DNA of 10,825 nucleotides from Candidatus Bathyarchaeia archaeon (GCA_050014495.1 JBEKDF010000060.1:1-10825); one strand, 5' to 3'; counted from the first letter of the stretch, positions 1-10,825 are shown. Translations and numbers: made by a program. Notes: generated by a model from the letters alone, not told the origin.

Positions 1-310
1 CGCGAAGGGGGACAGGCTCGTCGATGCTATAGTGGACTATACTCATGTAGTGGAGGCCGTGGGCAATAGGTGGGGTGATTCCCTTGTCCTCCTGGGGAAT
101 AAGGCCCTCGACACCGAGGATGACGTGTGTGCTTGGGCTGGTAAAGTCTAGGTCAAGGAGGCCGACTATTTGGTTTTTGTCTCTGAGTGCCAAAGCAAGT
201 GCTACAGCGACCATGCTCTTACCGACTCCACCCTTACCGCTGCTGACAGCGATTATCCGTCTAACTTTGTCGAATCTGCCTGGGATGATGGCGAGGCGTG
301 GGTCGTTCAC
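1..310 (-). CDS. Mrp/NBP35 (ParA/MinD-family) ATPase, N-terminal part, runs off the window; possibly an ATP-dependent HypB-type nickel maturase
   Basis: Not in the ORF track. Manual translation from GTG at 310 gives MNDPRLAIIPGRFDKVRRIIAVSSGKGGVGKSMVA...VGLLDLDFTSPSTHVILG...DKGITPP. It has the deviant Walker A motif GKGGVGKS and a DLD motif. The GTG overlaps the hypA TGA (GTGA). Confidence 0.9.
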   Translation of the reverse strand, partial: MNDPRLAIIPGRFDKVRRIIAVSSGKGGVGKSMVAVALALALRDKNQIVGLLDLDFTSPSTHVILGVEGLIPQEDKGITPPIAHGLHYMSIVHYSIDEPVPLR

Positions 311-711
311 TCTAGTTTCCTCCCCTTTAAGCTGGCTAGCCAGATACCACGTCCTTCGGTCACTTCGAAATCGGGACTTCCGCAGTTAGGGCATTTGAGG
401 TAGACATGAGCCATCTCTGGAACGAAGTGTATAGCCTCACCCGTCTCCTCGTCGAGTTTCTGGGTATCCAGACTCCACTCGTGATCACACTTCCGACACT
501 TGAATCTGGCGGGTACGGTATCTATTACGAATTTAGTCTTCTTCATCCGAGGGGTCCGCATCTGGTCTAAGGCGAATTCTATTATGTCGTGCTCAATTTG
601 CTGAAGCTCACCTATCATTATCTTAACCTCGGTTATCTCCTCAATTCTATGGTCTTCAGCGAATTTTTCAGCAGTTTTAATGATCCCCTCGGCTAGGGCC
701 CACTCGTGCAT
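307..711 (-). CDS. hypA: Hydrogenase nickel-incorporation protein HypA
   Basis: N-terminal MHE nickel-binding motif, IGELQQI, and two CxxC zinc motifs (CRKC, CPNC) separated by the long insert seen in Thermococcales-type HypA. Confidence 0.95.
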   Translation of the reverse strand: MHEWALAEGIIKTAEKFAEDHRIEEITEVKIMIGELQQIEHDIIEFALDQMRTPRMKKTKFVIDTVPARFKCRKCDHEWSLDTQKLDEETGEAIHFVPEMAHVYLKCPNCGSPDFEVTEGRGIWLASLKGRKLE

Positions 712-785
712 GGCTCATGGGGAATCCACGAGGCTAATCAATATTACTTACTGATGAAGTTGAGCGAGCACTATCGGTAAGATAC

Positions 786-793
786 TTAAATAA
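786..793 (+). promoter_or_regulatory. Putative archaeal TATA box for the 820..1236 gene (probably leaderless transcript)
   Basis: TTAAATAA ends about 27 nt upstream of the TTG start at 820, in the divergent intergenic region. Confidence 0.5.
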
Positions 794-819
794 GTGTTCA
801 GAGGGATAGGCGTTACCCA

Positions 820-1236
820 TTGGACGCTTACCTTACTGAGCTAGATAGATTGGAGATGTGCTTAATGGTCTGGCGGGGTGAAGAGATGGTTTTCAGCAGC
901 CGGAGCAAAGGGATACGTCCCCACCTCGAAGCGATCGAAGTGCTCGGTAGAGAAGGGCTGAATGGATCCGTGATGGCGGACAAGATAGTAGGAAGGGCTG
1001 CGGCGCTGCTGATGCTCTACTCTGTTCCCGCTGAAGTTCACGCAGTTGTCATAACAAAGAAAGCGAAGGAACTATTGGAATCAGGAGGGGTTAAAGTGTT
1101 TCCAGATTCGGAGGTACCGGCGATAAAGGAGAAGAACGGGCGTATCTATTGCCCCTTCGAGGCAATGGTTCAGGGGATAAGCGACCCCGAGGAGGCCTAT
1201 TCCGCCATAGTTGCAAAGATGCTTAGTATGAAATAG
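820..1236 (+). CDS. DUF1893 (TM1506-like) protein
   Basis: Motifs G(I)RP(H)L, ADKIVGRAAALL and CPFE, and the 138-aa length, fit the family as I recall it. TTG start. Confidence 0.8.
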   Translation: MDAYLTELDRLEMCLMVWRGEEMVFSSRSKGIRPHLEAIEVLGREGLNGSVMADKIVGRAAALLMLYSVPAEVHAVVITKKAKELLESGGVKVFPDSEVPAIKEKNGRIYCPFEAMVQGISDPEEAYSAIVAKMLSMK

Positions 1237-1304
1237 TCACCTTAGGTGGATAGGTTTAAGAACAGTTTAAGTCCAGTGTTTAGGATTCACCGCTGGTTCT
1301 TGCT

Positions 1305-1976
1305 ATGAGGGACGAGATCGAGAAGCTCGCCGCACAGATAGGAAATAGTGAGCTTAGGGAGAGGGTCCTCGAGTTGCTTAGGAATCCGACTCTCGACCTA
1401 GATTATCCCTGCCTCAGCTTAGAGGAGTGTCCCGCTGGGGCATATCAGCATCACAGCTACAGCGGAGGGCTTCTCCAGCACACGATTGGTGTCACTAAGC
1501 TCAGTATGACGCTCTGCGACCTTGTTGAAGAGGTCTACGAAGGAAAGGTTGATAGGGACACCGTCATCGCGGGGGCACTCATCCACGATATAATGAAGAC
1601 TTACACTTACGAGCCTCGAGGTGATGGTAGCTATATCAGCAGCCCGCTGGGGGAAAAAGTCGACCACCTCACCCTACTCGTCGCGGAGCTATACAAGCGG
1701 GGGTTTCCAGTGGAGGTTATACACGTCGTGGCATCCCACCATGGTGATGTGAGCCCAATCAAGCCCAAGACTATGGAGGCTCTCATCGTTAGCATCGCGG
1801 ACCTCGCTGATTCTGAGCTGAGTAGAAAGACGCTACGGGCCGCTGAGTACCTACTCAGGCAGATGGGGGAGAACCAGCCCAAGCTAAGCTCCAGCAGGGA
1901 GGCCTTGGACCTTGTACAAGCTAAAAGTAAGGAAGGTTGGGATGGGGTCAGAAAGCTGAGTAACGGGAAGAGTTGA
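1305..1976 (+). CDS. HD-domain phosphohydrolase (YhaM HD-like without OB fold; candidate MptB dihydroneopterin 2',3'-cyclic phosphate phosphodiesterase)
   Basis: PAG..HHSY.GGLLQHT, ALIHDIMK (HD), DH, SHHG, P.T.EA.IV..ADLADS. Confidence 0.8.
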   Translation: MRDEIEKLAAQIGNSELRERVLELLRNPTLDLDYPCLSLEECPAGAYQHHSYSGGLLQHTIGVTKLSMTLCDLVEEVYEGKVDRDTVIAGALIHDIMKTYTYEPRGDGSYISSPLGEKVDHLTLLVAELYKRGFPVEVIHVVASHHGDVSPIKPKTMEALIVSIADLADSELSRKTLRAAEYLLRQMGENQPKLSSSREALDLVQAKSKEGWDGVRKLSNGKS

Positions 1977-2070
1977 GTTCCTCGTTTTATAGACAGATTA
2001 AGTTGCTACAAGGCGATTGTCAATACTAAAATATGGATGGTGTTAGTGTCCAAGCAAAGGGGTTCCACAT

Positions 2071-2790
2071 ATGATGAAGGTTGCGATGATTGGTTTCGGC
2101 ACGGTTGGCAGCAATTTTGTAAAGGTCCTCCATGTGAAGAGGAAGATGCTCAAAGATCGCTATGGCCTTGAATGCGAGATTGTGGCGGTGAGTGATATAA
2201 ACAGGGGCTCAGTCTATGACCCGAAGGGGCTTGACATTCCAGAGCTTCTCCGCCTAGTTAAGGAGGCGAACAAGATCGATGGGTACAAAGGGGGTAAGAA
2301 GGGAATGGATAGCCTCATGACGATCAGGGAGACAAACGCCGATGTGATAGTCGAGGTTGCTTGGACAAACCTTGAGACGGGGGAGCCGGGCTTCACTCAC
2401 ATTAAGGAGGCACTAAGGGCGAAGAAACACGTCATAACGAGCAACAAGGGACCCCTCGCTCTCGCCTACCCAGAGTTGAAGAAACTGGCGGATGAGAACG
2501 GGGTACAGATCCGCTTTGAGTGTACCGTGATGAGTGGGACGCCGACGATCCTGCTGGGGATGGAGGGTCTAGCGGGGCATAAGATCAACGGCTTCCGCGG
2601 CATCCTCAACGGGACAAACAACTATATGCGCGCGCGCGACCCCCTTGCGAGTGTAAGCGGCACAATGAATGCACTGACATTCGAGACCGACGGCCTTGGC
2701 CCAGTAACCATCATCGGTAAGGGCGCTGGAGGCATCGAGACAGGCCATGGTATTCTAACAGACCTCCTCGCAATCCACAGATCTATGTAG
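2071..2790 (+). pseudogene. hom: Homoserine dehydrogenase with an in-frame internal deletion that removes catalytic-domain residues
   Basis: GFGTVG Rossmann motif, HVITSNKGP, FECTVMSGTP, GILNGTNNY and the C-terminal PLASVSGTMNA..GKGAGGIETG are present. The intervening EADP..D..G.DAA.K segment is absent and is replaced by RAR, encoded by the CG tract at 2628-2638. Confidence 0.8.
2628..2638. repeat. (CG)n tract, 11 nt, at the hom deletion junction
   Basis: GCGCGCGCGCG read directly from the sequence. Confidence 0.9.
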
Positions 2791-2932
2791 AAGGAAAACC
2801 GAAGAATTTAGTGCAGAGTATAGCAAGCATGCCAATATCTTGGAGAGAAGACGAGCGAAGCCTTGAGAGATCACACGCGCACGGAATACTCGTCCTTTTA
2901 AAGACGAGCAAACAAATTATTTCCAGATCTAA

Positions 2933-4426
2933 ATGACGCGTGTCAGTGGGTTTAGGCTCGAAGGTGTGCTACCAGCGATCGTAACTCCCTTCAACAAGAA
3001 TGAGGAATTTGATGAGCAGTCGTTTCGCAATCTCATCGATTGGCTGATCGAAAAAGGGATCACTGGCATCGTTCCGTGCGGGACAACTGGTGAATTCTCG
3101 CAGATGAACCATGCTGAGCGACAGAAAGTCATCGAAGTTTGTGTCGACCAGGTGAATGGAAGGATACCGGTAATAGCGGGCACCGGCGATACATCAACAA
3201 AACTCGTAATAGAAGCCACTAAACATGCCCTCGACGTGGGGTCAGACGCAGCCATAATCGTGAACCCATACTACATGAAGCCAAAAGGCGGAAAGGGAAT
3301 TTACGATCACTACCTCGCAGTCGCAGAGAGTGTAGACATCCCAATAGTCTTATACAATATTCCACCGGCAACCAACCAGTATATTCCATGGCAGGTGATT
3401 GAAGACCTAGCTGAAGTACCAAATATTGTGGCTTTGAAAGACTCAAGCGGGGACCTCAAGTATTTGATGACGGTGCTGGAGAAAGTAAGCGACAAGATAG
3501 ATGTAGTATGCGGGTGGGATGAAGTTGTTTTACCAGCGCTAGCAGCTGGAGCCAACGGTATGGTCCTCGCCAGCGCTAACGTAATCGCTCCCATCTGGCT
3601 CGACATCTATAAGAAAATGAAGGAGGGTAGGTTCGAGGAGGCGAGGGTCGCGATGAGGAAGATCCAGAAGTTCACACGGCACATCGTCGCAACCGGCGCT
3701 CAGGGGCCGAAGGTCTGCCTCAACTTCATGGGCCTTAAGGTAGGTAACACTAGGAGGCCAATAGTAATGGGAGACACGGTGAGCTATGAACTCAAAGAGG
3801 AGTTACGAATAGAGTTGGAAAACCTCGGGCTCGTTGATAAGAAGCCCATCACCTTCAGGGTGGTGCCTGATGAACCACTCGTGCAGAGATTTTACAACGT
3901 TGGATTAACTCCGGATGTGATCGATCAATTTATACTCAGGACTGGCGAGGCGCTCGTTGATCCAGATTCAAATGAGGTTGCCCACATCGACCTGATCATG
4001 GGTAGAATTGATGGTCCAGTCGGGAAGGCGTACGCTGATGCCCTCACGAGACCATCACCCGAGCGTGAGGCGACTCAAGCTATCCTCGAGCCTAATATTG
4101 CGGTGAAACCTCCAACGCTCGTTGTTCCAACTGTGCCAGTCAAGGGCATGAGGGAGGCTAGTATGGTTTATGGGCCAGGTCAAGCCGCTGTTGCGAAGGC
4201 AGTAGCAAAATCCGTGGAGGATGGGATACTACCGGCAACCGACAAACTCGTGCTCATAGCTAAGGTGTTCGTTCACCCCTCCTCAACCGACCGTCAGAGG
4301 GTCTTCATAAACAACTATAAGGCGATGCGCCACGCGATTAGAAAGGCTATGGAAGGTCGTCCAACGGTTGAAGAAGAGGTGGAAAACGCGGATAATTCAC
4401 GCCACCCATTTAGAGAGAATATGTGA
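2933..4426 (+). CDS. Fusion of a DapA/NAL-family class I aldolase (aa ~8-300) and a formaldehyde-activating enzyme Fae domain (aa ~334-495)
   Basis: N-terminal part: VTPF, GTTGE, PYY, LYNIP (Y141) and Schiff-base K169 in KDSSGD. C-terminal part: GEAL...NEVAHIDL..G...GPVG.A, L.PN..VKP.T, GPGQAAVAKAVA.SVEDG, NY.A...AI..AM.G.P and HPF, all Fae hallmarks. It is one uninterrupted 497-aa ORF. Confidence 0.92.
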   Translation: MTRVSGFRLEGVLPAIVTPFNKNEEFDEQSFRNLIDWLIEKGITGIVPCGTTGEFSQMNHAERQKVIEVCVDQVNGRIPVIAGTGDTSTKLVIEATKHALDVGSDAAIIVNPYYMKPKGGKGIYDHYLAVAESVDIPIVLYNIPPATNQYIPWQVIEDLAEVPNIVALKDSSGDLKYLMTVLEKVSDKIDVVCGWDEVVLPALAAGANGMVLASANVIAPIWLDIYKKMKEGRFEEARVAMRKIQKFTRHIVATGAQGPKVCLNFMGLKVGNTRRPIVMGDTVSYELKEELRIELENLGLVDKKPITFRVVPDEPLVQRFYNVGLTPDVIDQFILRTGEALVDPDSNEVAHIDLIMGRIDGPVGKAYADALTRPSPEREATQAILEPNIAVKPPTLVVPTVPVKGMREASMVYGPGQAAVAKAVAKSVEDGILPATDKLVLIAKVFVHPSSTDRQRVFINNYKAMRHAIRKAMEGRPTVEEEVENADNSRHPFRENM

Positions 4427-4547
4427 ATACACTCCCTTCTTCAGCTCCGTAAGAGTAAAGTGTAGAGCCCCGGTACTCAGAGAGTTATTCTATTGAATCA
4501 GCATACGCGGGAAGACTAATATGGTGGCTACTGCGGTTTTTCTCTGG

Positions 4548-4632
4548 GCAGAGGTGCCAGAGCGGTTATTGGGCTAGTCTCGAAAACTAGTGGCCTTGAG
4601 CCTCAAGGGTTCGAATCCCTTCCTCTGCGCCA
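4548..4632 (+). tRNA. tRNA-Ser(CGA), encoded CCA, no intron
   Basis: Acceptor stem GCAGAGG/CCTCTGC, anticodon arm CTAGT-CTCGAAA-ACTAG (CGA at 4581-4583), long variable arm, T arm AAGGG-TTCGAAT-CCCTT, discriminator G and CCA. Confidence 0.96.
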
Positions 4633-4657
4633 TACAAAATGTTTGAATTGGGCAATA

Positions 4658-4673
4658 TTTTGCGCGCGCAAAA
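4658..4673. repeat. Perfect 16-bp palindrome with a (GC)4 core
   Basis: TTTTGCGCGCGCAAAA, 25 nt after the tRNA CCA. Confidence 0.9.
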
Positions 4674-4866
4674 CGAATCAAACTGATTTTGGATAGGGAG
4701 ATCCGAGCGCTGCCTTGTCACTAAATTAGGAAAACAATATACGCATACATTTAGTTGCTGTCGAAGGTATTCGACCATATCTGGCAACCAGTCTCGGGGA
4801 GTGCTAGCACAGTTTTGGTGGGGAAAATATTTTCTAGTCGATTGCAGATTTAGACAACGACATAAG

Positions 4867-5763
4867 ATGGTTGAAAAAAGGGTGGGTAAGGACTCCGGTT
4901 ACATTTTCATGGGTCCAACCGTGGAGCGGAAGAGGAAGGAGGTAAAGCCTGGTCAGGTGCTCATCGACTGCCACAAGTCGGGGATCGTCGTCAGCGACAA
5001 CGCTGGCAGCCCCTGGAATAAATGCACGTACTACGCGCATGGAAGCGTCCTGATCGACGCCGCGGGTAAGCTCATCAGGCAAGCGGCGTTCGTCGAGACG
5101 ATAGACCCGGACGGCGACGTGACCTGGAGCATCCTCTGGGAGCCGGGCGAGGGAAAGGCGGTCTACCACTTCATAGTCGGCACGGGGAAGTGGAAGGGGA
5201 TCGCAGGCGAGGCGACCATCACGGATATGCAGCGCCGCGCTGACGACGGCACGATGCCGAGCTATAAGATGAGCTGGGAGCTCGATGAGAAGAACGATCT
5301 GACCGTACCAGCATTCGAGCCCAAGGGCCCATACACAAACAAGGCATCGAGCCTGAGCTTCCACGGGCCCCACGTTACAGAGTCGATAAGGGAACTATCC
5401 AACGGGTTGAAGCTCATCGTCAACACGCAGATAGGGGTGCTACTGCCGGAGGATCCAGCGGTCCCGAGTCCACGCGGCTACGCAGCCAGCTACGACAAGG
5501 GGGTGACCGTGTGGAGCCATGGAGAGAGGCTCGCCGATGTGATGCTGCTCGAAGACACGGACGCGGAAGGCGACATGTCGTGGCTTGTCCACGTCTGGTG
5601 GTACGCAAGGGGCCGTGGATTATACAAGTTCGTCGGAGGCACCGGGAAGTGGGAGGGCATCAGAGGTGAAGGAACCACGCTCCCCGCGATTCTTAAGCCT
5701 CGCACCGACGACTATCATTTCCTCAGGTCGGGAATACAGTGGAGGATTGACAATCCCGGCTGA
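4867..5763 (+). CDS. Hypothetical protein with two tandem homologous beta-rich domains (dirigent/allene oxide cyclase-like GTGK motif)
   Basis: Internal repeat: ETIDPDGDVTW...YHFIVGTGKWKGIAGEAT and EDTDAEGDMSW...YKFVGGTGKWEGIRGEGT. ATG 4867 is preferred over GTG 4801 because the upstream stretch is AT-rich and promoter-like. Confidence 0.75.
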   Translation: MVEKRVGKDSGYIFMGPTVERKRKEVKPGQVLIDCHKSGIVVSDNAGSPWNKCTYYAHGSVLIDAAGKLIRQAAFVETIDPDGDVTWSILWEPGEGKAVYHFIVGTGKWKGIAGEATITDMQRRADDGTMPSYKMSWELDEKNDLTVPAFEPKGPYTNKASSLSFHGPHVTESIRELSNGLKLIVNTQIGVLLPEDPAVPSPRGYAASYDKGVTVWSHGERLADVMLLEDTDAEGDMSWLVHVWWYARGRGLYKFVGGTGKWEGIRGEGTTLPAILKPRTDDYHFLRSGIQWRIDNPG

Positions 5764-5861
5764 GAATGAGGATCATTTAAGGTACGAACTCGGTTTCCGC
5801 CTTCATCAGGAATGAATTAACTGAAACATGAAAAATTTGAATTTACCAGTCTAAACCATAC

Positions 5862-5882
5862 TTTGAAGCTCTTCCTCTGCGC
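5862..5882 (+). repeat. Degenerate direct repeat of the tRNA-Ser 3' end (putative attR)
   Basis: TTTGAAGCTCTTCCTCTGCGC versus TTCGAATCCCTTCCTCTGCGC: 18/21 identical without gaps, last 12 nt exact, followed by TTTT. Confidence 0.75.
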
Positions 5883-6106
5883 TTTTCACAATCAAAAAAT
5901 AGTCATTATTTAAGCGTAGTTTTATAAAAGAGGCGAAAATACTAGGATTTGAATTTTACCTTTACAATGGATTTATTCCACGGTTTACACTACTTGGCCG
6001 TCTCTCTTCACTGGCGAAAGATACGCACAGATTATATACGCGCTAGAAACACGAATCATTCAATAATCTTATCCTAACTTCACGCTAACCATTAACCAGT
6101 AATAAT

Positions 6107-6211
6107 ATGTTTACAATAGAAGAGATTCAGGCTGCCTACTACATGGCGGCAGCAACAGGAATACTCATCGCAGCAGCTGGCTTTGTTACATATGCCGCGC
6201 GCGTAATCTGA
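6107..6211 (+). pseudogene. 34-aa single-transmembrane ORF, probably the truncated N-terminus of a membrane-anchored protein
   Basis: MFTIEEIQAAYYMAAATGILIAAAGFVTYAARVI*. It is a hydrophobic helix and stops two codons after the CG tract at 6196-6203. Confidence 0.55.
6196..6203. repeat. (CG)4 tract
   Basis: CGCGCGCG at the end of the 34-aa ORF. Confidence 0.85.
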
Positions 6212-6602
6212 GACAGATTCAGCTGAAGACTTCATCGATCAACCCACGGTTAATGTGATTAAAAGCCATTTAATTTGTTATCGTGTACATCATCTGTTAG
6301 TCTCATTTCTTATTTTGCGCTAATTCATTTTGATCTTCATTCCCGTTAACGCGCGAATTCGCAACCCTCAGATGCTTCACTCCACTTTGAACCTCCATCT
6401 GATCCCTCGAAATCCCTTATGTTTAGGCCATGTTGATCAAGATCCTCCATGTAGATAACCATAAATTCCGCTTATAGCCATCATCCAGCTGAACCAGGCG
6501 GACCCGCATAACGTCACTGATCAGACGATAATCTCTCTTCTCCAGTAGACATCACATGCATGGTATCGAAGTCATCGGACCAGCCTCCACGTGAAGCGGC
6601 CA

Positions 6603-6611
6603 CGCGCGCGC
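6603..6611. repeat. (CG)n tract, 9 nt
   Basis: CGCGCGCGC just beyond the 3' end of the TIGR00300 gene. Confidence 0.85.
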
Positions 6612-6633
6612 AAAAGAATTGAGTTTAACTGAA

Positions 6634-7921
6634 TCACATAATATTCGCACACCAGCGCGTAGGTGCTCTCGCGAGCTCATCTACCAACAGGGGGAGGAAG
6701 GCTCCCACGTCAGAGACTATCCCAACAGCCTGACTAGTACCCCTATCACTGAGCTTCGTAACCACAGCAGGGTTAATGTCCACGCGGATGACCTTTACGC
6801 TCGACCTCAACATGTTCCCGACGGCTATTGAGTGAAGGGTGGACGCGAGCATGAGAACGAAGTCGACATCACGTACCAACTCCTTATACCTACCCTGAGC
6901 CTCCGCTGTGTCCTTAATCACATCTGGAATAGGCCCATCGTCCCTGATGGAGCCAGCGAGGACATAAGGAATTCCCCTTATATGGAGCTGGTGGAAGATA
7001 CCGCTCCTGAGCCTACCCTCGTCTACCAGGGCTCCAATAGATCCAGCCCGGTTCACCTCATTAATCGCAGCGATATGGTTACGAGGCTCTCTCCTCCTCA
7101 TACCATCATCAAGCTCTACGCCGAGGCTAGTCCCATAGAGTGCATACTCGATATCGTGAACAGCCAGCGCATTCCCGGCGAGGAGGGCATCAACGTAACC
7201 GAGTTCGATCAGTTTAGCCAGGCTAGGCGCAGCACCAGTGTGGATCACCGCTGGCCCCGCGACGACAGCTATCTTACCCCCACTCTTAATCGTCTCATGG
7301 AGCTCCTCAGCAATCTTCTTGATGAGGGAGATTGAGGGCTTCTCGGAGGAGACGTCGCTGTTCATGAACTCGAAGACGTCGACCCCCTCCCGCGGACGCT
7401 CAGGGGGCGTTATCCTGATCCCCCTCTCACCCGTTACCACGAGATCTCCTCTTCTCACTTGACTAATCGGCTTGCAGTAAGCGACACGCCTCTCTGAGTC
7501 GACGATGATCTGCTTATCCATCATCAAGTCCTCAACCTCGACCCATCTGCCGCCCAAGTAGACTGATGTTGGGTGATTTGATGTGGAGTAGAAGTCGTCG
7601 GGGAGGGTCATGTCCCTGGCTGCAGGCTTGTATTCGACCTCGGGGGTCTCCGGTGTCTTCGCCCCGAGGCGGAAGACCTCTTTGAGGATGGAGTCCAGGT
7701 GCTCCTGGCTTTTACCCGTTATCTGGATTCTGGTGGAGCTGTAGTCGTTCTTGCGTTTTCCGACTTTGAAGTCGAGGAACTCGAACTCCCCTTTCTGATC
7801 CATTACCTCGTCAAGAATCTTCGTCAGAATCATGGAGTCGATGAGATGACCCTCGACTTCTATAATCTGGGAATATTTCGCCTCATTCTCTGAGGCTGAT
7901 GGGAAAACTATCCCTTCTCAA
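6634..7921 (-). CDS. TIGR00300 / LOR-SDH family protein (ArcE-type ornithine cyclodeaminase); the start region is out of frame
   Basis: P..FYSTSNHPT, FEFMNSDVSSEKP, GPAVIHTG, GNALAVHDIE..LYGTSLG, LAGSIRDDGP, LHSIAVGNM and VDINP.VVTKL.DRG are present. The conserved IEVEGHLIDS lies upstream of the ORF-track ATG (7833). The best RBS and start (GGTGA-N5-TTG at 7921) is one nucleotide out of frame. Confidence 0.85.
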
Positions 7922-8047
7922 CTGATTCACCGGACTGTAAGCCACTGTATACATATATTAAGAGTTACTGAAGTTGGCGCGTCCAAATTTATTCGCACGC
8001 ATATTGTGACTATAGAATCTTTAAACAAACTAGTACTCAAGGTGGGA

Positions 8048-8950
8048 TTACTTGTCGAGGAGCCAAAAGAGGAGGCCCTTTTGGGCGTGCATCCTGTTCC
8101 CAGCCTGGTCGAAAACGACAGACCGATCCGAGTCCATGACTTCTCTAGTTATCTCTAAGCCTATGTGAGCGGGGAGACAGTGCATCACCATGCAGTCCAC
8201 CTTCGCCTTCTCGACTAATCCCATATTAACTTGGAAGGGCTTGAAGGCCTTAATTCTCTCCTCCCTCTCAGCCTCCATGCCGGCGCTGACCGCGACATCC
8301 GTGTAGATCACATCAGCGTCCTTCACCCCACCGACGGGGTCGTGGATGACCTTCACATCTCCACTGACCTTCTTCAGGAGGGCTGGGCTCGGACTGTACT
8401 TCGGGTCATCCGGGCAAGCGACGGTGACGTTCATACCAACGTTGGTACAGCCTATTATTGTTGAAGTGGCCGTGTTACAAGCACCATCACCGACGTACGT
8501 TACATTAAGCCCCTCAAGTTTACCCTTATGCTCCTCGATGGTTAGGAGGTCCGCGAGGTTCTGACACGGGTGATACTGCTCGGTCATTCCGTTGATTACG
8601 GGCACCGTGGCAACCCCGCCCATCCTCTCAATTACCTCCTGCTTGAGGACGCGGGCCATGATGAAGTCGACATACCTGTTCAGGTTCCTTATCCCATCCT
8701 CCATCGACTCATCCCTCGTGAACCTGCCACCCTCTATGCTGTAGAAGATGGCGTGCCCGCCGAGCTGATTCATCCCCGCCTCGAAGCTGACCCTTGTACG
8801 GAGTGAGGGGAGCTCGAAGAGCATAATCAGGGTCTTTCCATTCATGGATTCGCCGTATTCGAGGGGGTTCTCCTTTATCTTACTCGAGAGGTCGAGAATC
8901 TCCTTTAGATCTTCCTTTGATAGGTCGAAGTCGCTTAGAACATGTTTCAA
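8048..8950 (-). CDS. argF: Ornithine carbamoyltransferase-family transcarbamylase (divergent motifs)
   Basis: F..PSLRTRVSFE, HPCQ.LAD, YVGDG.CN, YTD...S.G, HCLPAH and DQA.NR.H.QK. TTG start. Confidence 0.85.
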   Translation of the reverse strand: MKHVLSDFDLSKEDLKEILDLSSKIKENPLEYGESMNGKTLIMLFELPSLRTRVSFEAGMNQLGGHAIFYSIEGGRFTRDESMEDGIRNLNRYVDFIMARVLKQEVIERMGGVATVPVINGMTEQYHPCQNLADLLTIEEHKGKLEGLNVTYVGDGACNTATSTIIGCTNVGMNVTVACPDDPKYSPSPALLKKVSGDVKVIHDPVGGVKDADVIYTDVAVSAGMEAEREERIKAFKPFQVNMGLVEKAKVDCMVMHCLPAHIGLEITREVMDSDRSVVFDQAGNRMHAQKGLLFWLLDK

Positions 8951-8970
8951 GGCGATTACCTAATGATTCA

Positions 8971-9111
8971 TTATGCTGAGGCTACTTTAATCTCCTGATA
9001 GTCGGTCTTCCCCTTTTTTAGCCATTCGTTTGAGCCCTCGAACACACAGTGTTTAAGGACTTTGCAGAGGTGTTCTCCGTAGTTCTCTAAACAGGCTTCA
9101 CATGGCTTCAT
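8971..9111 (-). CDS. 46-aa Cys-rich microprotein (CxxC-x8-C-x5-C), putative metal-binding
   Basis: Manual translation: MKPCEACLENYGEHLCKVLKHCVFEGSNEWLKKGKTDYQEIKVASA*. It ends 20 nt before the transcarbamylase start and has a TATA-like box upstream. Confidence 0.6.
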   Translation of the reverse strand: MKPCEACLENYGEHLCKVLKHCVFEGSNEWLKKGKTDYQEIKVASA

Positions 9112-9128
9112 GGTTTGTCACTTGACCT

Positions 9129-9172
9129 TTGGTGAAGCAAGTTCTACAACCTTAAATATATTGCGTCACCAA
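9129..9172 (-). promoter_or_regulatory. TATA-like box (TATATTTAAG, 9160-9151) flanked by a 12-bp inverted repeat, putative operator
   Basis: TTGGTGAAGCAA-N20-TTGCGTCACCAA, 11/12 complementary. Confidence 0.55.
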
Positions 9173-9241
9173 TGTTCTGAATATATATTTAATTGTTCTA
9201 TTTGTAACGTGCATGCGGAGTGTGCTTAACCAGTAACTTAA

Positions 9242-9253
9242 GGCGCGCGCGCC
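9242..9253. repeat. (GC)5 tract within a 12-bp palindrome
   Basis: GGCGCGCGCGCC in AT-rich DNA upstream of the GT2 gene. Confidence 0.9.
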
Positions 9254-9322
9254 GCAATAGAACAACTCTTACGTTGGAACATTGGTTAAGATAATCAAAA
9301 TGAGAATATAGGATGAGGATAA

Positions 9323-10522
9323 TTGATTTACGACTTCATTTGGGTATTTTGGATCCTAATCGGCATCATTTTCACCGTCCATGGGATATATACGGGGCTC
9401 TCATTTCGAAGCATCAACGCGAAATTAAAACGAAAGGCTTGGAAGCGCCCAAGGCGTAAAACTGTGGCTCCCATCTGCCTGATTGTTCCATTGTATAAGG
9501 AAGACAAGGAAAGTGTATCTAAGACATTCATAAGCATCGCAGAACAGGACTATCCCTCTGAGCTGGTAAAAGCTATCGTAGTTGTGGAGCAAGGTGATAA
9601 ATCGTCTTTTGATGCTGCTGAAGAGAAACTAGACATCCTAAAAGAAGCAGGGTTTAATACGGAGATAATTATAAAGCCACCTCCGCGTAGCACAAAGGCA
9701 TCGGCTATGAACTTCGCCATCACCCAAGCGAGTGAACCCTATGTCGGCATCTATGATGGGGGTGACGTCGTAAACGACAAACAGCAGTTCCGCCGAGCCG
9801 TATCCCTACTCGCCTCGGGTTACGACGGTGTCGGTATGAGAGTGATCAGGGGTGGCAGCGGCGTGGTTAGCACTTTCTCCTGGATAGACACTACTATGTG
9901 GTGTGACGTCACATTACCCGCCCTGACGTGCTTACTTAACACGCCACTCGCTAGCGGAGAGGGTTTATTCGTCAGGAAGGATGCGATCGAAGCAATTGGT
10001 GGCTTCCCTAACTCCCTGACGGAGGACTCTCAGCTAACTCTACTCTTCGCCCAGAGTGGATTGAAGATGGCACTTCTAGACAGCGATGTCTACGAGGGTG
10101 CGCCAAGGGACCTGAATAACCTGATTAGGCAAAAACTCCGCTGGCACAAAGGGATCTTCTTCTGCCTAAGACAAACCCTTTTGAGCAAGTTACCAATTAG
10201 GCGGAAGCTTGAATTAGCGATAGCGTACAGCGCCCCGATAGTCTTGGTAGCGATCGCCCTGAGTTTTTTCATGATAGTTCTAGGTGTCCTTGAACCTCAC
10301 GTTATCCCCAATTACCTCTTCTGGTGGAGCATTATCGTAACTGTGAGCACATTGACAGCACCTATCTATATGGCAAGGGCTAGATATTCGATTACATTTA
10401 AGTCAAGTCTGCTTCTGCCACTTTACTGGTTTTCAGTTGGCATTTTAACAGTTTATGCGTTCTTTTCACCAAAGATCCAATGGTATAAGACAATGAGACG
10501 TTCGGATTTTACCCCCTCATAG
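9323..10522 (+). CDS. Membrane-bound processive family 2 glycosyltransferase (CESA-like)
   Basis: N-terminal TM helix, VPLYKE, KA.AMN, YDGGD, IGGF...LTED, QKLRW (QxxRW) and C-terminal TM helices. Confidence 0.9.
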   Translation: MIYDFIWVFWILIGIIFTVHGIYTGLSFRSINAKLKRKAWKRPRRKTVAPICLIVPLYKEDKESVSKTFISIAEQDYPSELVKAIVVVEQGDKSSFDAAEEKLDILKEAGFNTEIIIKPPPRSTKASAMNFAITQASEPYVGIYDGGDVVNDKQQFRRAVSLLASGYDGVGMRVIRGGSGVVSTFSWIDTTMWCDVTLPALTCLLNTPLASGEGLFVRKDAIEAIGGFPNSLTEDSQLTLLFAQSGLKMALLDSDVYEGAPRDLNNLIRQKLRWHKGIFFCLRQTLLSKLPIRRKLELAIAYSAPIVLVAIALSFFMIVLGVLEPHVIPNYLFWWSIIVTVSTLTAPIYMARARYSITFKSSLLLPLYWFSVGILTVYAFFSPKIQWYKTMRRSDFTPS

Positions 10523-10548
10523 AATCTGTTATTCAGAAAATTTGTTTT

Positions 10549-10557
10549 CGCGCGCGC
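10549..10557. repeat. (CG)n tract, 9 nt
   Basis: CGCGCGCGC between the GT2 gene and the IS end. Confidence 0.85.
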
Positions 10558-10558
10558 T

Positions 10559-10825
10559 GGCCTGTCCCTAAATTCAAGATCAGTTAGAATAAGTTTATTT
10601 TGATAGTTGAGGGTCTCGTCCCCCAATGGTCTGCCTAACCCTAGGAGGTGAGTTCACTTAGGACAAGATGAACACGAGACCCTTGAAACACTCTTCAAAA
10701 ACATCGACTTAAGCATTGCCCAACAGCAACTCCTAGGCTGCTACCACACAACCGGCCCAGGAAGACCACCAAGAAACCCACTCGGCATCCTCAGGGCCCT
10801 CCTCATCATGCGATTGAAGGGAATC
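10559..10825 (+). mobile_element. Left end of an insertion sequence (IS5/IS1182-like DDE transposase), truncated by the window edge
   Basis: Putative terminal sequence GGCCTGTCCCTAAAT and RBS GGAGGTGA (10644-10651). Frame 10658-10825 reads LGQDEHETLETLFKNIDLS...YHTTGPGRPPRNPLGILRALLIMRLKGI, with the GRPP..P...L.AL motif of transposase N-terminal (DUF772-type) domains. Confidence 0.7.

What the first reader, a model, noticed from the sequence alone, without database searches (positions are those of the whole stretch)
2628..10557. Six (CG)n tracts marking apparent rearrangement junctions: possible signature of an undescribed end-joining or excision process
Seen: alternating CG runs of 11, 8, 8, 9, 10 and 9 nt at 2628, 4662, 6196, 6603, 9243 and 10549, with shorter ones at 6350 and 6655. 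At equal base frequencies about 0.3 such 8-mers are expected per window (2 x 10825 / 4^8). Most sit in AT-rich DNA, and I saw none of 8 nt or more inside intact genes. Their positions are the hom deletion point, just inside the tRNA islet, the end of a truncated ORF, the edge of a remnant region, both sides of the GT2 gene, and next to the IS end. Variable length and phase with unrelated flanks look more like filler than a protein-binding site. Inference: these may be scars of double-strand-break repair in which a polymerase or primase adds self-complementary (CG)n tails that anneal any two ends. Alternatives are Z-DNA/hairpin fragile sites, element-excision footprints, or library/assembly chimeras.
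Basis: partly seen in the sequence, partly recalled or inferred. Interest (0 to 1): 0.85.

Follow-up and report, generated by a model that had tools for sequence, protein, structure and literature searches.

The report
Transposon scars of alternating GC letters
The short GCGCGC... runs in this peat archaeon are real, far too frequent for chance and sit exactly at DNA joints, and they are most likely scars left by one family of jumping genes whose ends carry GCGCGC, not the product of a new repair enzyme.

Summary
Observation confirmed. All six runs are at the stated coordinates (6 CGCGCGCG matches against 0.14 expected). Contigs from four other samples bridge them. The genome holds 459 runs of 8 nt or more, with a sharp cut-off after 10 nt. 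About 30 GCGCGCGC are expected and 512 are seen.

The runs do mark joints. In the hom gene, (GC)5 replaces about 307 nt that three relatives keep, and those relatives have no run at either edge. Homology blocks with relatives stop or start at four of the six runs.

Interpretation partly supported. An IS5/IS1182-like insertion sequence (IS) family abuts such runs wherever I looked, across three subfamilies and eight species. In the nearly run-free G001, the only GCGCGCGC touches an IS-end remnant. A distant family of the same class carries related IS and is also run-rich. There, four near-identical copies plus one variant read TA-GCGCGC...GCGCGC-TA, and solo runs read TA(GC)4TA (25 and 32 copies). 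That word never occurs in this genus, which has AT(GC)4AT instead.

A complete Ku/LigD end-joining operon exists, but its distribution does not follow the runs. No empty or occupied allele pair was caught, so tip footprint versus duplicated target stays open.

This scan reached similar readings before, on other pieces of this genome and on other genomes.

The parts
2628..2638 (.). (GC)5 run (+1 native G) at an in-frame deletion inside the homoserine dehydrogenase gene
   Evidence: G016, G008 and G002 carry about 307 nt here and have no CG run at either edge (net loss 306 nt). Pfam Homoserine_dh profile positions 1-127 are missing; bridged by X6 and X9 contigs.
2071..2790 (+). Homoserine dehydrogenase remnant (239 aa) carrying the deletion
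   Evidence: NAD_binding_3 at residues 8-150, Homoserine_dh profile 128-173 only; relatives match up to 2627 and resume at 2636-2638.
4548..4632 (+). tRNA-Ser(CGA), attachment site of a degraded integrated element
   Evidence: G012 and G015 carry a roughly 5.5-7 kb element behind the same tRNA.
4662..4669 (.). (GC)4 run at the joint between the tRNA flank and a block shared with G002 and G012
   Evidence: homology with G002:C33 and G012:C1 starts at 4670, directly after the run. The left flanks differ in all three genomes.
4703..4727 (+). Old IS-end remnant (tgccttgtcactaaatt) with a decayed tip (ccgagcgc)
   Evidence: the orthologous copy in G002 reads ccgcgcgc|tgccttgtccctaaatt. In G012 the tip has decayed to ccgtgtac.
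5871..5882 (+). Copy of the tRNA-Ser 3' end (cttcctctgcgc), the likely right attachment site of the islet
   Evidence: alternative continuations after 5884 in X4, X6 and X9.
6196..6203 (.). (CG)4 run about 20 nt past the conserved part of a multicopy small ORF
   Evidence: many relatives match up to 6174-6178; 6204-6602 has no relative in the DNA held.
6350..6355 (.). Short CGCGCG run
6603..6611 (.). 9-nt run at the edge of orphan DNA, 23 nt beyond the stop of the ArgZ-like gene
   Evidence: homology with G012:C6 begins at 6656.
9243..9252 (.). (GC)5 run between the OTCase upstream region and the GT2 gene
   Evidence: homology with G013 and G004 ends near 9210. G013 has its own run 13 nt beyond that point and G004 has none, so these are independent events.
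10549..10557 (.). 9-nt run directly abutting the IS left end
   Evidence: G016 has ccgcgcgtg at about the same distance from the GT2 stop (30 nt against 27), without an IS.
10558..10825 (+). Left end of an IS5/IS1182-like IS (IR TGGCCTGTCCCTAAATT, start of the transposase gene), cut by the contig end
   Evidence: G000:C60:10652-10825, 95% identity to transposase residues 1-58.

Best explanation
The alternating GC runs are most likely scars of one family of IS5/IS1182-like insertion sequences whose two ends carry GCGCGC. Shown: wherever these IS sit, a run of about 6-10 alternating G/C lies directly outside each inverted repeat. Solo runs carry the same outer flank letters as occupied sites. 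Runs occur at deletion and rearrangement joints where the ancestral sequence had none. Inferred: when an element leaves or is lost, the two self-complementary GCGCGC tips pair in one of several registers and are sealed. Two 6-nt tips minus an overlap of 6, 4 or 2 nt would give 6, 8 or 10 nt. That would explain the cut-off at 10 and the lack of a visible target duplication. Inferred: the link with joints arises because these IS sit where DNA was inserted, replaced or deleted next to them. G016 shows such a state, with the IS and both runs replacing 420 nt. After loss of the IS only the run would remain, as in hom. Runs then decay, mainly by C>T and G>A changes. Old scars probably also attract new insertions, which would explain the clustering. 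Which enzymes cut and seal is not known. Ku/LigD is present here but does not track the runs.
For: (1) IS ends abut runs. 14 of 15 copies of the window's IS end in this genome have at least GCGC directly outside TGGCYTGTCCC. 37 of 49 IS-end-like sites abut a run of 6-10 nt. 13 of the 13 copies from seven relatives (G016, G012, G002, G009, G007; plus two G000 copies) have a run on at least one side; the L/R pairs read from both calls include 8/8, 6/6, 7/8, 8/6, 6/7, 9/8 and 10/8. Loose ends of other copies in four samples share exactly GCGCGC or 7-8 nt.
(2) A subfamily with only 33% transposase identity and unrelated inverted repeats (ATAAGTGTTCATTAATT) is flanked 8/6.
(3) In G001 (1.8 Mb, 94% complete) the single GCGCGCGC abuts an IS-end remnant.
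(4) Polarised case: the G016:C16 IS with runs 7/8 replaces about 420 nt of a gene that is continuous and run-free in G000 C1 and in G009:C5.
(5) Independent replicate outside the genus. Transposase relatives occur in 21 of 121 sampled genomes of the class. Four of five such genomes tested are run-rich (G114 298, G106 325, G096 106, G110 68; G058 has 6). Ten genomes with no transposase match hold 0-10.
(6) In G114 (5 contigs), four near-identical copies and one more diverged copy all read GCGCGC at both ends, with TA outside on the left in 4 of 5 and on the right in 3 of 5.
(7) Flank concordance. TA(GC)4TA occurs 25 times in G114 and 32 in G106, and 0 times in G000 and G016. AT(GC)4AT occurs 10 and 6 times in G000 and G016, and 1 and 0 in G114 and G106. 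In G000, solo flanks after ...GC are A in 63% and AT in 28%, like the outer flanks of occupied sites.
(8) G015 has no transposase match, yet 16 of 28 runs in 400 kb lie in one low-GC island. That island also holds a decayed IS end followed by GCGTGTGCGCG.
(9) Not a general joint signature: about 14 of 37 large indels carry a run (my hand count).
Against: About 97% of run flanks are unique, and only 1 of 572 solo flanks begins with the IS-body letters TGGC or TGCC. The footprint is therefore 'clean', unlike classical mariner scars. No site was caught with occupied and empty alleles, so a pre-existing run as target cannot be excluded. The G114 structure also fits a 4-bp duplication at the centre of TA(GC)4TA. 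Run lengths next to near-identical IS copies vary (5, 6, 8, 10; 8/7 against 8-with-a-change/3 in a second G114 subfamily), which a fixed tip does not predict. Transposase count and run count correlate only moderately (Spearman 0.51 over 18 related, unequally assembled genomes). G015, G003, G013 and G017 have 55-351 GCGCGCGC with no transposase match. Deletions of 306-452 nt with a run and no IS (hom; C14; inside an IS copy in C33) need a two-step history under this reading. One IS junction, conserved in three species, has no run.
Confidence: 0.68

Rival explanations
1. The runs are the preferred palindromic target of the IS family, as for some IS1182 members, and are duplicated whole or in part at insertion. 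The IS multiplies and spreads runs but does not carry them as tips. Solo runs are unused or restored targets.
For: IS1272, of the IS1182 family, targets inverted repeats, and its authors' model includes duplication of a whole palindrome at both IS ends (PMC5678879, sections 22 and 29 read). Left and right run lengths are similar and vary from copy to copy. Imperfect runs such as gcgtgcgcgc lie next to near-identical, hence young, IS ends. The G114 copies fit a 4-bp GCGC duplication at the centre of TA(GC)4TA. Runs are clustered: 12% of neighbours lie within 200 nt against 2.9% expected.
Against: It does not say where hundreds of 8-12-nt palindromes come from. Chance gives about 30 GCGCGCGC and far less than one TA(GC)4TA. 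It needs an earlier, unexplained run-forming event at hom, at C14, at C33 and at the G016:C16 site, whose ancestral sequences have no run. In G001 the only GCGCGCGC is the one at the IS remnant.
Confidence: 0.17
2. One reading: an IS-independent end-joining route, for example the Ku/LigD primase-polymerase, adds self-complementary (GC)n to broken ends and joins any two ends. The IS family merely prefers these scars.
For: De novo runs at deletions with no IS present. There is a complete operon of LigD-type primase-polymerase, Ku and a ligase-phosphoesterase fusion at G000 C3. The length cap at 10 nt could reflect an enzyme's ruler. G015 and G003 hold runs without a transposase match.
Against: Ku and the polymerase domain are present in the run-poor G001 and G010. 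Ku was not found in the run-rich G096 (96% complete), G110 (95%) and G106 (90%). About 23 of 37 large indels have no run. Solo runs carry lineage-specific outer letters that match the local IS (TA..TA against AT..AT), which random breaks would not give. Run-richness follows the IS family across two distant families of the class.
Confidence: 0.1
3. The runs are a selected, functional iterated palindrome, such as a protein-binding site, a Z-DNA element or a HIP1-like word kept by biased repair or methylation.
For: They are palindromic, strongly over-represented, mostly intergenic and have symmetric flank preferences.
Against: They are not conserved at orthologous positions. G000 and G013 have runs at different offsets upstream of OTCase and G004 has none. 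The old tip at 4703-4710 is intact in G002 and decayed in G000 and G012. Runs replace coding sequence. Numbers vary from 1 to 512 within one genus.
Confidence: 0.04
4. Library or assembly artefact (chimeric joins, linker remnants).
For: The genome is a metagenome-style assembly with 7.5% estimated contamination. Blocks between runs have different nearest relatives.
Against: Independent per-run contigs from four samples and four studies bridge all six runs. The stretch is held by runs of 23 studies. The feature recurs in 16 of 18 genomes of the genus and in a second family.
Confidence: 0.01

Closest known systems
Excision footprints of cut-and-paste DDE transposons (Tc1/mariner type: duplicated TA plus a few terminal bases of the element). 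Recalled from general knowledge, not from a call.
   Same: A short, element-derived sequence is left between the target flanks after the element has gone. In G114 and G106 the solo form is TA + (GC)4 + TA, while the element reads TA-GCGCGC...GCGCGC-TA. Scars mark past insertion sites.
   Different: The host is a prokaryote (archaeon). The transposase is IS5/IS1182-like, not Tc1/mariner. The tips are self-complementary, so the scar is a perfect palindrome of 6-10 nt with no element-body letters. Scars are very numerous relative to live copies. Excision itself was not observed.
IS1182 family, in particular IS1272 of Staphylococcus (PMC5678879; abstract and sections 22 and 29 read)
   Same: A DDE transposase with DUF772 and DDE_Tnp_1 domains, with the best NCBIfam match to IS1182. 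There is an association with palindromic DNA at the insertion site, and insertions replace target DNA without a classical duplication.
   Different: The NCBIfam score of 94.7 bits is far below the family cut-off of 270. IS1272 replaces varied stem-loops, whereas here one fixed alternating GC word flanks every subfamily and survives as solo copies.
IS insertion into DNA breaks with adjacent deletion and no target duplication (Ngan et al., bioRxiv 10.1101/2024.06.02.596822; abstract only)
   Same: In G016 an IS sits where 420 nt of a gene are missing. An IS5/IS1182-type element is among their cases.
   Different: Their cases are laboratory bacteria and report no GC runs. Here the IS is later lost and a run remains.
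Archaeo-prokaryotic NHEJ (Ku, LigD polymerase, phosphoesterase, ligase)
   Same: All four activities are encoded in one operon in this genome. They could seal donor sites.
   Different: The distribution does not follow the runs. No known LigD polymerase writes alternating GC (recalled).
HIP1, the highly iterated palindrome of cyanobacteria (recalled)
   Same: An 8-nt GC-rich palindrome that is hugely over-represented in a lineage.
   Different: As I recall, HIP1 is common inside genes. These runs avoid long open frames (22% inside against 85% coverage), are not positionally conserved, and sit at indel joints.

Membership tests
IS5/IS1182 superfamily insertion sequence (the element at 10558-10825 and its copies) | DDE transposase of the DDE_Tnp_1 type with an N-terminal DUF772 region | tested here: met
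   PF01609 1.4e-13 (51.5 bits, cut-off 23); PF05598 1.9e-09 (37.8 bits, cut-off 23.1).
IS5/IS1182 superfamily insertion sequence (the element at 10558-10825 and its copies) | Score above the curated cut-off of a named IS family model (IS1182 or IS5) | tested here: not met
   IS1182 94.7 bits against a cut-off of 270; IS5_4 84 bits against 140. It is filed as a relative of both, and as a member of neither by these models.
IS5/IS1182 superfamily insertion sequence (the element at 10558-10825 and its copies) | Terminal inverted repeats bounding a 1.1-1.3 kb element in several copies | tested here: met
   TGGCYYGTCCC...GGGACRRGCCA, about 1284 bp between the runs; G114 copies.
IS5/IS1182 superfamily insertion sequence (the element at 10558-10825 and its copies) | Direct target-site duplication of fixed length | tested here: inconclusive
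   The GC runs on the two sides are similar but rarely equal. Beyond them there is no direct repeat above chance. TA on both sides in 3 of 5 G114 copies.
Transposon excision footprint | The scar consists of element-terminal letters between the target flanks typical of that element | tested here: met
   TA(GC)4TA occurs 25 and 32 times where the IS reads TA-GCGCGC, and 0 times in this genus. AT(GC)4AT occurs 10 and 6 times here; solo flank signature.
Transposon excision footprint | The same site is seen occupied in one genome and scarred or empty in another | tested here: inconclusive
   downstream of GT2, G000 has a run plus IS and G016 has ccgcgcgtg without an IS, which fits but is not polarised; no empty allele found for the C67 junctions.
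Transposon excision footprint | Excision by the transposase leaves the tips behind (cleavage positions) | not testable with these tools
   Needs biochemistry or an excision assay.
Ku/LigD end joining as writer of the runs | The genes are present in the genome | tested here: met
   LigD_Prim-Pol, Ku, and ligase + LigD_N phosphoesterase in one operon on C3.
Ku/LigD end joining as writer of the runs | The distribution of the genes follows run enrichment | tested here: not met
   present in G001 and G010, which have 1 GCGCGCGC each. Ku found in 1 of 5 genomes tested outside the genus, four of which are run-rich (some incomplete).
HIP1-like selected iterated palindrome | Positions conserved between relatives and frequent inside genes | tested here: not met
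   not conserved; 22% in long open frames.

The most novel reading that the evidence does not exclude
The runs are written by a dedicated joining process, independent of any transposase. That process would put a self-complementary (GC)4-5 linker on broken or captured DNA ends and so stitch unrelated segments into the chromosome. The IS family would only home to these linkers. The mosaic ancestry of the blocks between runs would then record linker-mediated capture of foreign DNA.
Probability: 0.1. Interest if true: 0.85.

Novelty: new variant of a known kind. Interest (0 to 1): 0.5.

Why it matters
If the reading holds, these uncultured peat archaea carry a natural, genome-wide record of transposon insertion and loss. 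Hundreds of dated scars would show where elements sat and which deletions, replacements and gene captures they accompanied. In prokaryotes such scars are rarely left, because donor sites are usually restored or lost.

The record would allow rates of IS turnover, adjacent deletion and accessory-DNA exchange to be read from sequence alone. It also gives a testable IS family with self-complementary GCGCGC tips.

For annotation, the runs are a practical marker of pseudogene breakpoints and island borders in this lineage. It would matter much more if the small remaining chance of an IS-independent linker-writing repair route were true.

Tried and rejected
(1) Assembly or library chimera: rejected, because independent contigs bridge all six runs.

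(2) Classical target duplication around solo runs: none above chance. Direct repeats of 2, 3 and 4 nt were found 31, 6 and 3 times out of 459, against about 33, 9 and 2 expected.

(3) Recurrent flanks: only about 25 of 918 flanks fall into repeat families, and all of these are IS ends.

(4) Looking for empty alleles of a young IS junction. Laying contigs of X1, X2, X5 and X7 on contig C67 gave other IS copies' flanks but no empty site. A metagenome scan with a 24-nt flank found only one contig, equivalent to C67.

(5) Orthologue of the gene interrupted by the C61 IS: not found with a 149-aa query in five relatives. That site could not be polarised.

(6) Flanks of 13 IS copies from relatives against this genome: only one (G016:C16) gave both flanks in one place. 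IS neighbourhoods are scrambled.

(7) A test of whether run 'freshness' (10-mers per 8-mers) follows IS content gave no clear separation: 0.17-0.18 in the IS-rich G000, G016 and G011, 0.095 in the IS-free G015 and 0.136 in G003.

(8) Literature. 'GCGCGCGC' with 'insertion sequence' gave 3 unrelated papers. 'insertion sequence / archaea / target site / GC-rich palindrom' gave nothing on this feature. One search failed on a term that was too short and was not repeated. I found no description of this feature in print with these searches.

(9) Two-class and binomial fits of run lengths did not settle the primary product. I do not rely on them.

(10) Ideas considered and dropped: fill-in of a G^CGCGC-type staggered cut, protelomerase-like hairpin resolution, and telomerase-like templated addition. 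None has support from any call.

Full report
WHAT IS THERE

The window is the whole 10,825-nt contig C60 of a 3.108-Mb, 92-contig genome. Earlier notes of this scan place the organism in order TCS64, which I did not test. The same DNA is held by peat, wetland, soil and freshwater metagenome runs from 23 studies.

The genes are as follows:
- ParA/Mrp-like ATPase (2-310, minus strand)
- HypA (307-711, minus)
- DUF1893 (820-1236)
- HD-domain protein (1305-1976)
- a shortened homoserine dehydrogenase (2071-2790)
- a DHDPS-Fae fusion (2933-4426)
- tRNA-Ser(CGA) (4548-4632)
- a 320-aa ORF with no Pfam match (4801-5763)
- an ArgZ/LOR-SDH-like gene (6634-7833, minus)
- ornithine/aspartate carbamoyltransferase (8048-8950, minus)
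- a family-2 glycosyltransferase (9323-10522)
- the first 268 nt of an insertion sequence (10558-10825)

CGCGCGCG occurs 6 times against 0.14 expected from shuffles.

Genome-wide there are 459 alternating C/G runs of 8 nt or more. The length profile is odd: 8:192, 9:144, 10:111, then 11:5 and 12:4. Other dinucleotide alternations fall off geometrically. A Markov model of order 2-3 expects about 30 GCGCGCGC, and 512 are counted.

Only 22% of the runs lie in long open frames, which cover 85% of the genome. Their flanks have 43.6% GC against 49.1% overall. They are also clustered: 12% of neighbours lie within 200 nt against 2.9% expected.

Contigs assembled separately from four other samples bridge all six runs in the window. 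The joints are therefore real DNA and not an assembly product. These are contigs, not raw reads.

THE RUNS MARK JOINTS

Homology blocks with 17 genomes of the genus end at 2627 and resume at 2636-2638. They start at 4670, directly after the 4662 run, and they start at 10549-10557 for the IS.

In hom, three relatives carry about 307 nt where this genome has GCGCGCGCGC. None of the three has a CG run at either edge. The run is therefore new sequence at an in-frame deletion of 102 codons.

I found the same kind of event elsewhere in the genome by comparing paralogous copies:
- (CG)5 replaces about 452 nt inside one IS copy (C33).
- ACGCGCGCGGGC replaces 321 nt in C14 relative to its paralogue in C51.

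Upstream of the OTCase gene, G000 and G013 each have a run just beyond the end of the conserved region, at different offsets. G004 has none, so these are independent events.

Blocks between runs have different nearest relatives:
- 1-2627 is closest to G002 (82-84%; G016 73-75%).
- 2638-4630 is closest to G016 (89%).
- 4670-5873 is closest to G002 (89%).
- 6656-7972 is closest to G012 and G011 (84-85%).

Runs are not a general mark of indels. Among 37 large size differences between collinear blocks of G016:C8 (410 kb) and this genome, about 14 carry a run of 7 nt or more in one allele and 23 carry none.

THE LINK TO ONE IS FAMILY

The element at the window's end is a roughly 1.28-kb IS. Its inverted repeats read TGGCYYGTCCC. 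It encodes a 331-aa DDE transposase (DDE_Tnp_1 plus DUF772). The best NCBIfam matches are to IS1182 and IS5, both below the family cut-offs.

- In this genome, 14 of 15 copies of its left end have at least GCGC directly outside the repeat, with run lengths of 5-10.
- 37 of 49 IS-end-like sites abut a run of 6-10 nt.
- Complete copies carry runs on both sides: 9/8 and 10/8 here, and 8/8, 6/6, 7/8, 8/6, 6/7 and 9/4 in G016, G012, G002 and G007.
- A subfamily with 33% transposase identity and quite different inverted repeats is flanked 8/6.
- Contigs of other IS copies in four samples share exactly GCGCGC, or 7-8 nt, next to the IS end.
- The window itself holds an old IS-end remnant at 4711-4727. 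Its tip is intact in G002 and decayed in G000 and G012.
- In G001, a 94%-complete genome with a single GCGCGCGC, that single copy abuts an IS-end remnant.
- In G016, an IS with runs 7/8 replaces about 420 nt of a gene that is continuous and run-free in G000 and G009. This is the hom situation with the IS still in place.

AN INDEPENDENT REPLICATE

Transposase relatives occur in 21 of 121 sampled genomes of the class. Five of these outside the genus were counted: G114 298, G106 325, G096 106, G110 68 and G058 6 GCGCGCGC. Ten genomes without any transposase match hold 0-10. Their GC content is unknown to me, so the zeros are weak evidence.

G114 is a 5-contig genome of another family. Four near-identical copies and one variant of a 46%-identical IS all end in exactly GCGCGC on both sides. 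TA lies outside on the left in 4 of 5 and on the right in 3 of 5.

The solo runs match this pattern:

| Word | G114 | G106 | G000 | G016 |
|---|---|---|---|---|
| TA(GC)4TA | 25 | 32 | 0 | 0 |
| AT(GC)4AT | 1 | 0 | 10 | 6 |

In G000, solo flanks after a ...GC end are A in 63% and AT in 28%. Occupied sites in the genus show the same T...A outer letters. Solo runs thus carry the flank signature of the local IS. That is expected for scars or targets of that IS and is not expected for random breaks.

HOW IT MOST LIKELY WORKS

Shown: the IS ends carry or touch GCGCGC, solo runs share their flanks, and runs appear where the ancestor had none.

Inferred: the hexamer is the tip of the element. When the element is excised or slips out, the two self-complementary tips pair in register 6, 4 or 2 and are sealed. 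This would leave 6, 8 or 10 nt, which would explain the cap at 10 and the clean palindromic scar with no IS-body letters (1 of 572 solo flanks begins TGGC or TGCC).

Inferred: deletion-plus-run joints arise in two steps. First comes an insertion that replaces target DNA or is followed by an adjacent deletion, as in the G016 state. This has bacterial parallels in the abstract of bioRxiv 10.1101/2024.06.02.596822 and in the IS1272 'replacing' insertions of PMC5678879, sections 22 and 29. Then the IS is lost.

Runs decay mostly by transitions. About 20 of 29 compound runs with a one-letter interruption are in-phase C>T or G>A changes (my classification).

Species differ in phase preference: (CG)5 48 against (GC)5 7 in G007, and 54 against 99 in G000. 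This fits subfamilies with different tips. One G114 subfamily has CGCGCGC-type ends.

WHAT ARGUES AGAINST IT

- No occupied and empty pair was caught. The alternative, that runs are palindromic targets duplicated at insertion, fits the same structures, including a 4-bp central duplication in TA(GC)4TA.
- Run lengths beside near-identical IS copies vary.
- G015, G003, G013 and G017 have runs but no transposase match. In G015, however, 16 of 28 runs in 400 kb sit in one low-GC island (46-53% against about 56%). That island also holds a decayed IS end followed by a decayed run. I read this as imported or relict accessory DNA.
- The rank correlation of transposase matches with run counts is 0.51, and with genome size 0.71. 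The 18 genomes are related and unequally assembled, so this is weak.

THE END-JOINING IDEA

The genome has a full operon: LigD-type primase-polymerase, Ku, and a ligase fused to the 3'-phosphoesterase. Ku and the polymerase domain are each found in 15 of 18 genomes of the genus. These include G001 and G010, which have one GCGCGCGC each.

Outside the genus, Ku was found in G114 but not in G096 (96% complete), G110 (95%), G106 (90%) or G058.

The operon may seal donor sites here. It neither suffices for the runs nor looks necessary for them. I keep the IS-independent writer at about 0.1.

COMPARISON AND NOVELTY

The closest known things are transposon excision footprints of the Tc1/mariner kind (recalled) and the palindrome-associated IS1182 family (PMC5678879). 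What is new:
- an archaeal IS5/IS1182-like family with self-complementary GCGCGC ends
- hundreds of perfect palindromic scars per genome
- their value as markers of deletion and island borders

My searches found no description of this in print.

This scan has noted the same feature before, on other pieces of this genome and on other genomes. Most follow-ups read it as transposon scars and two as an undescribed joining process. I used those notes as leads only. The cross-lineage flank test and the polarised G016 case are my own checks.

VERDICT

This is a new variant of a known kind, of moderate interest.

Noticed in passing
window 2071-2790: The hom gene has lost exactly 102 codons in frame (306 nt net), and the reading frame stays open to a normal stop. 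A second deletion-plus-run event (G000 C14:4047 against its paralogue in C51) is also in frame (309 nt net). I did not test whether such shortened genes are still used or whether another hom copy exists.
   Followed up: partly
window 2933-4426: A single 497-aa ORF fuses a dihydrodipicolinate-synthase-family domain (residues 9-280) to a formaldehyde-activating-enzyme domain (337-493). It is conserved at 76-89% in six or more genomes of the genus.
   Followed up: no
window 4548-5890: tRNA-Ser(CGA) is followed by a degraded integrated element that ends in a 12-nt copy of the tRNA 3' end (5871-5882). G012 and G015 carry a roughly 5.5-7 kb element at the same tRNA. Contigs in X4, X6 and X9 continue differently after 5884, so the site is polymorphic in nature.
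   Followed up: partly
window 1-10825 against relatives: Blocks between the runs have different nearest relatives: G002 for 1-2627 and 4670-5873, G016 for 2638-4630 and 9285-10522, and G012/G011 for 6656-7972. This suggests exchange of segments between species of the genus, or uneven sampling of incomplete genomes.
   Followed up: partly
G000 C3:64206-67464 (L079 2207-5464): A complete archaeal Ku/LigD-type end-joining operon: a primase-polymerase domain protein, Ku, and a ligase fused to the 3'-phosphoesterase domain. Ku and the polymerase domain are each found in 15 of 18 genomes of the genus.
   Followed up: partly
G000 C17:57460-58775 and C48:5777-7090; G016 L042; G012 L051: One IS junction has no GC run. 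The IS end abuts GACGGTATGAGAAACG..., the start of another repeat of about 1.3 kb. The same junction is present in three species and twice in this genome.
   Followed up: no
window 6106-6210 and many loci in relatives: A multicopy small ORF family with a conserved N-terminus (EIQAAYYM.AATG.L.AAA) lies inside a repeat (about 5846-6178) found in at least nine genomes of the genus.
   Followed up: no
genus-wide counts: Species differ strongly in the phase of 10-nt runs. (CG)5 against (GC)5 is 48:7 in G007, 24:8 in G009, 69:32 in G013, 54:99 in G000 and 2:9 in G012.
   Followed up: no
window 4801-5763: A 320-aa ORF with 59-64% GC, well above the genome's 49%, has no Pfam match. It is conserved at 75-89% in G002, G012, G015 and G007 and sits inside the tRNA islet.
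   Followed up: no
G015:C2 about 156-236 kb: A low-GC island (46-53% against about 56% around it) holds 16 of the 28 runs of 8 nt or more found in 400 kb. It also holds a decayed IS end.
   Followed up: partly
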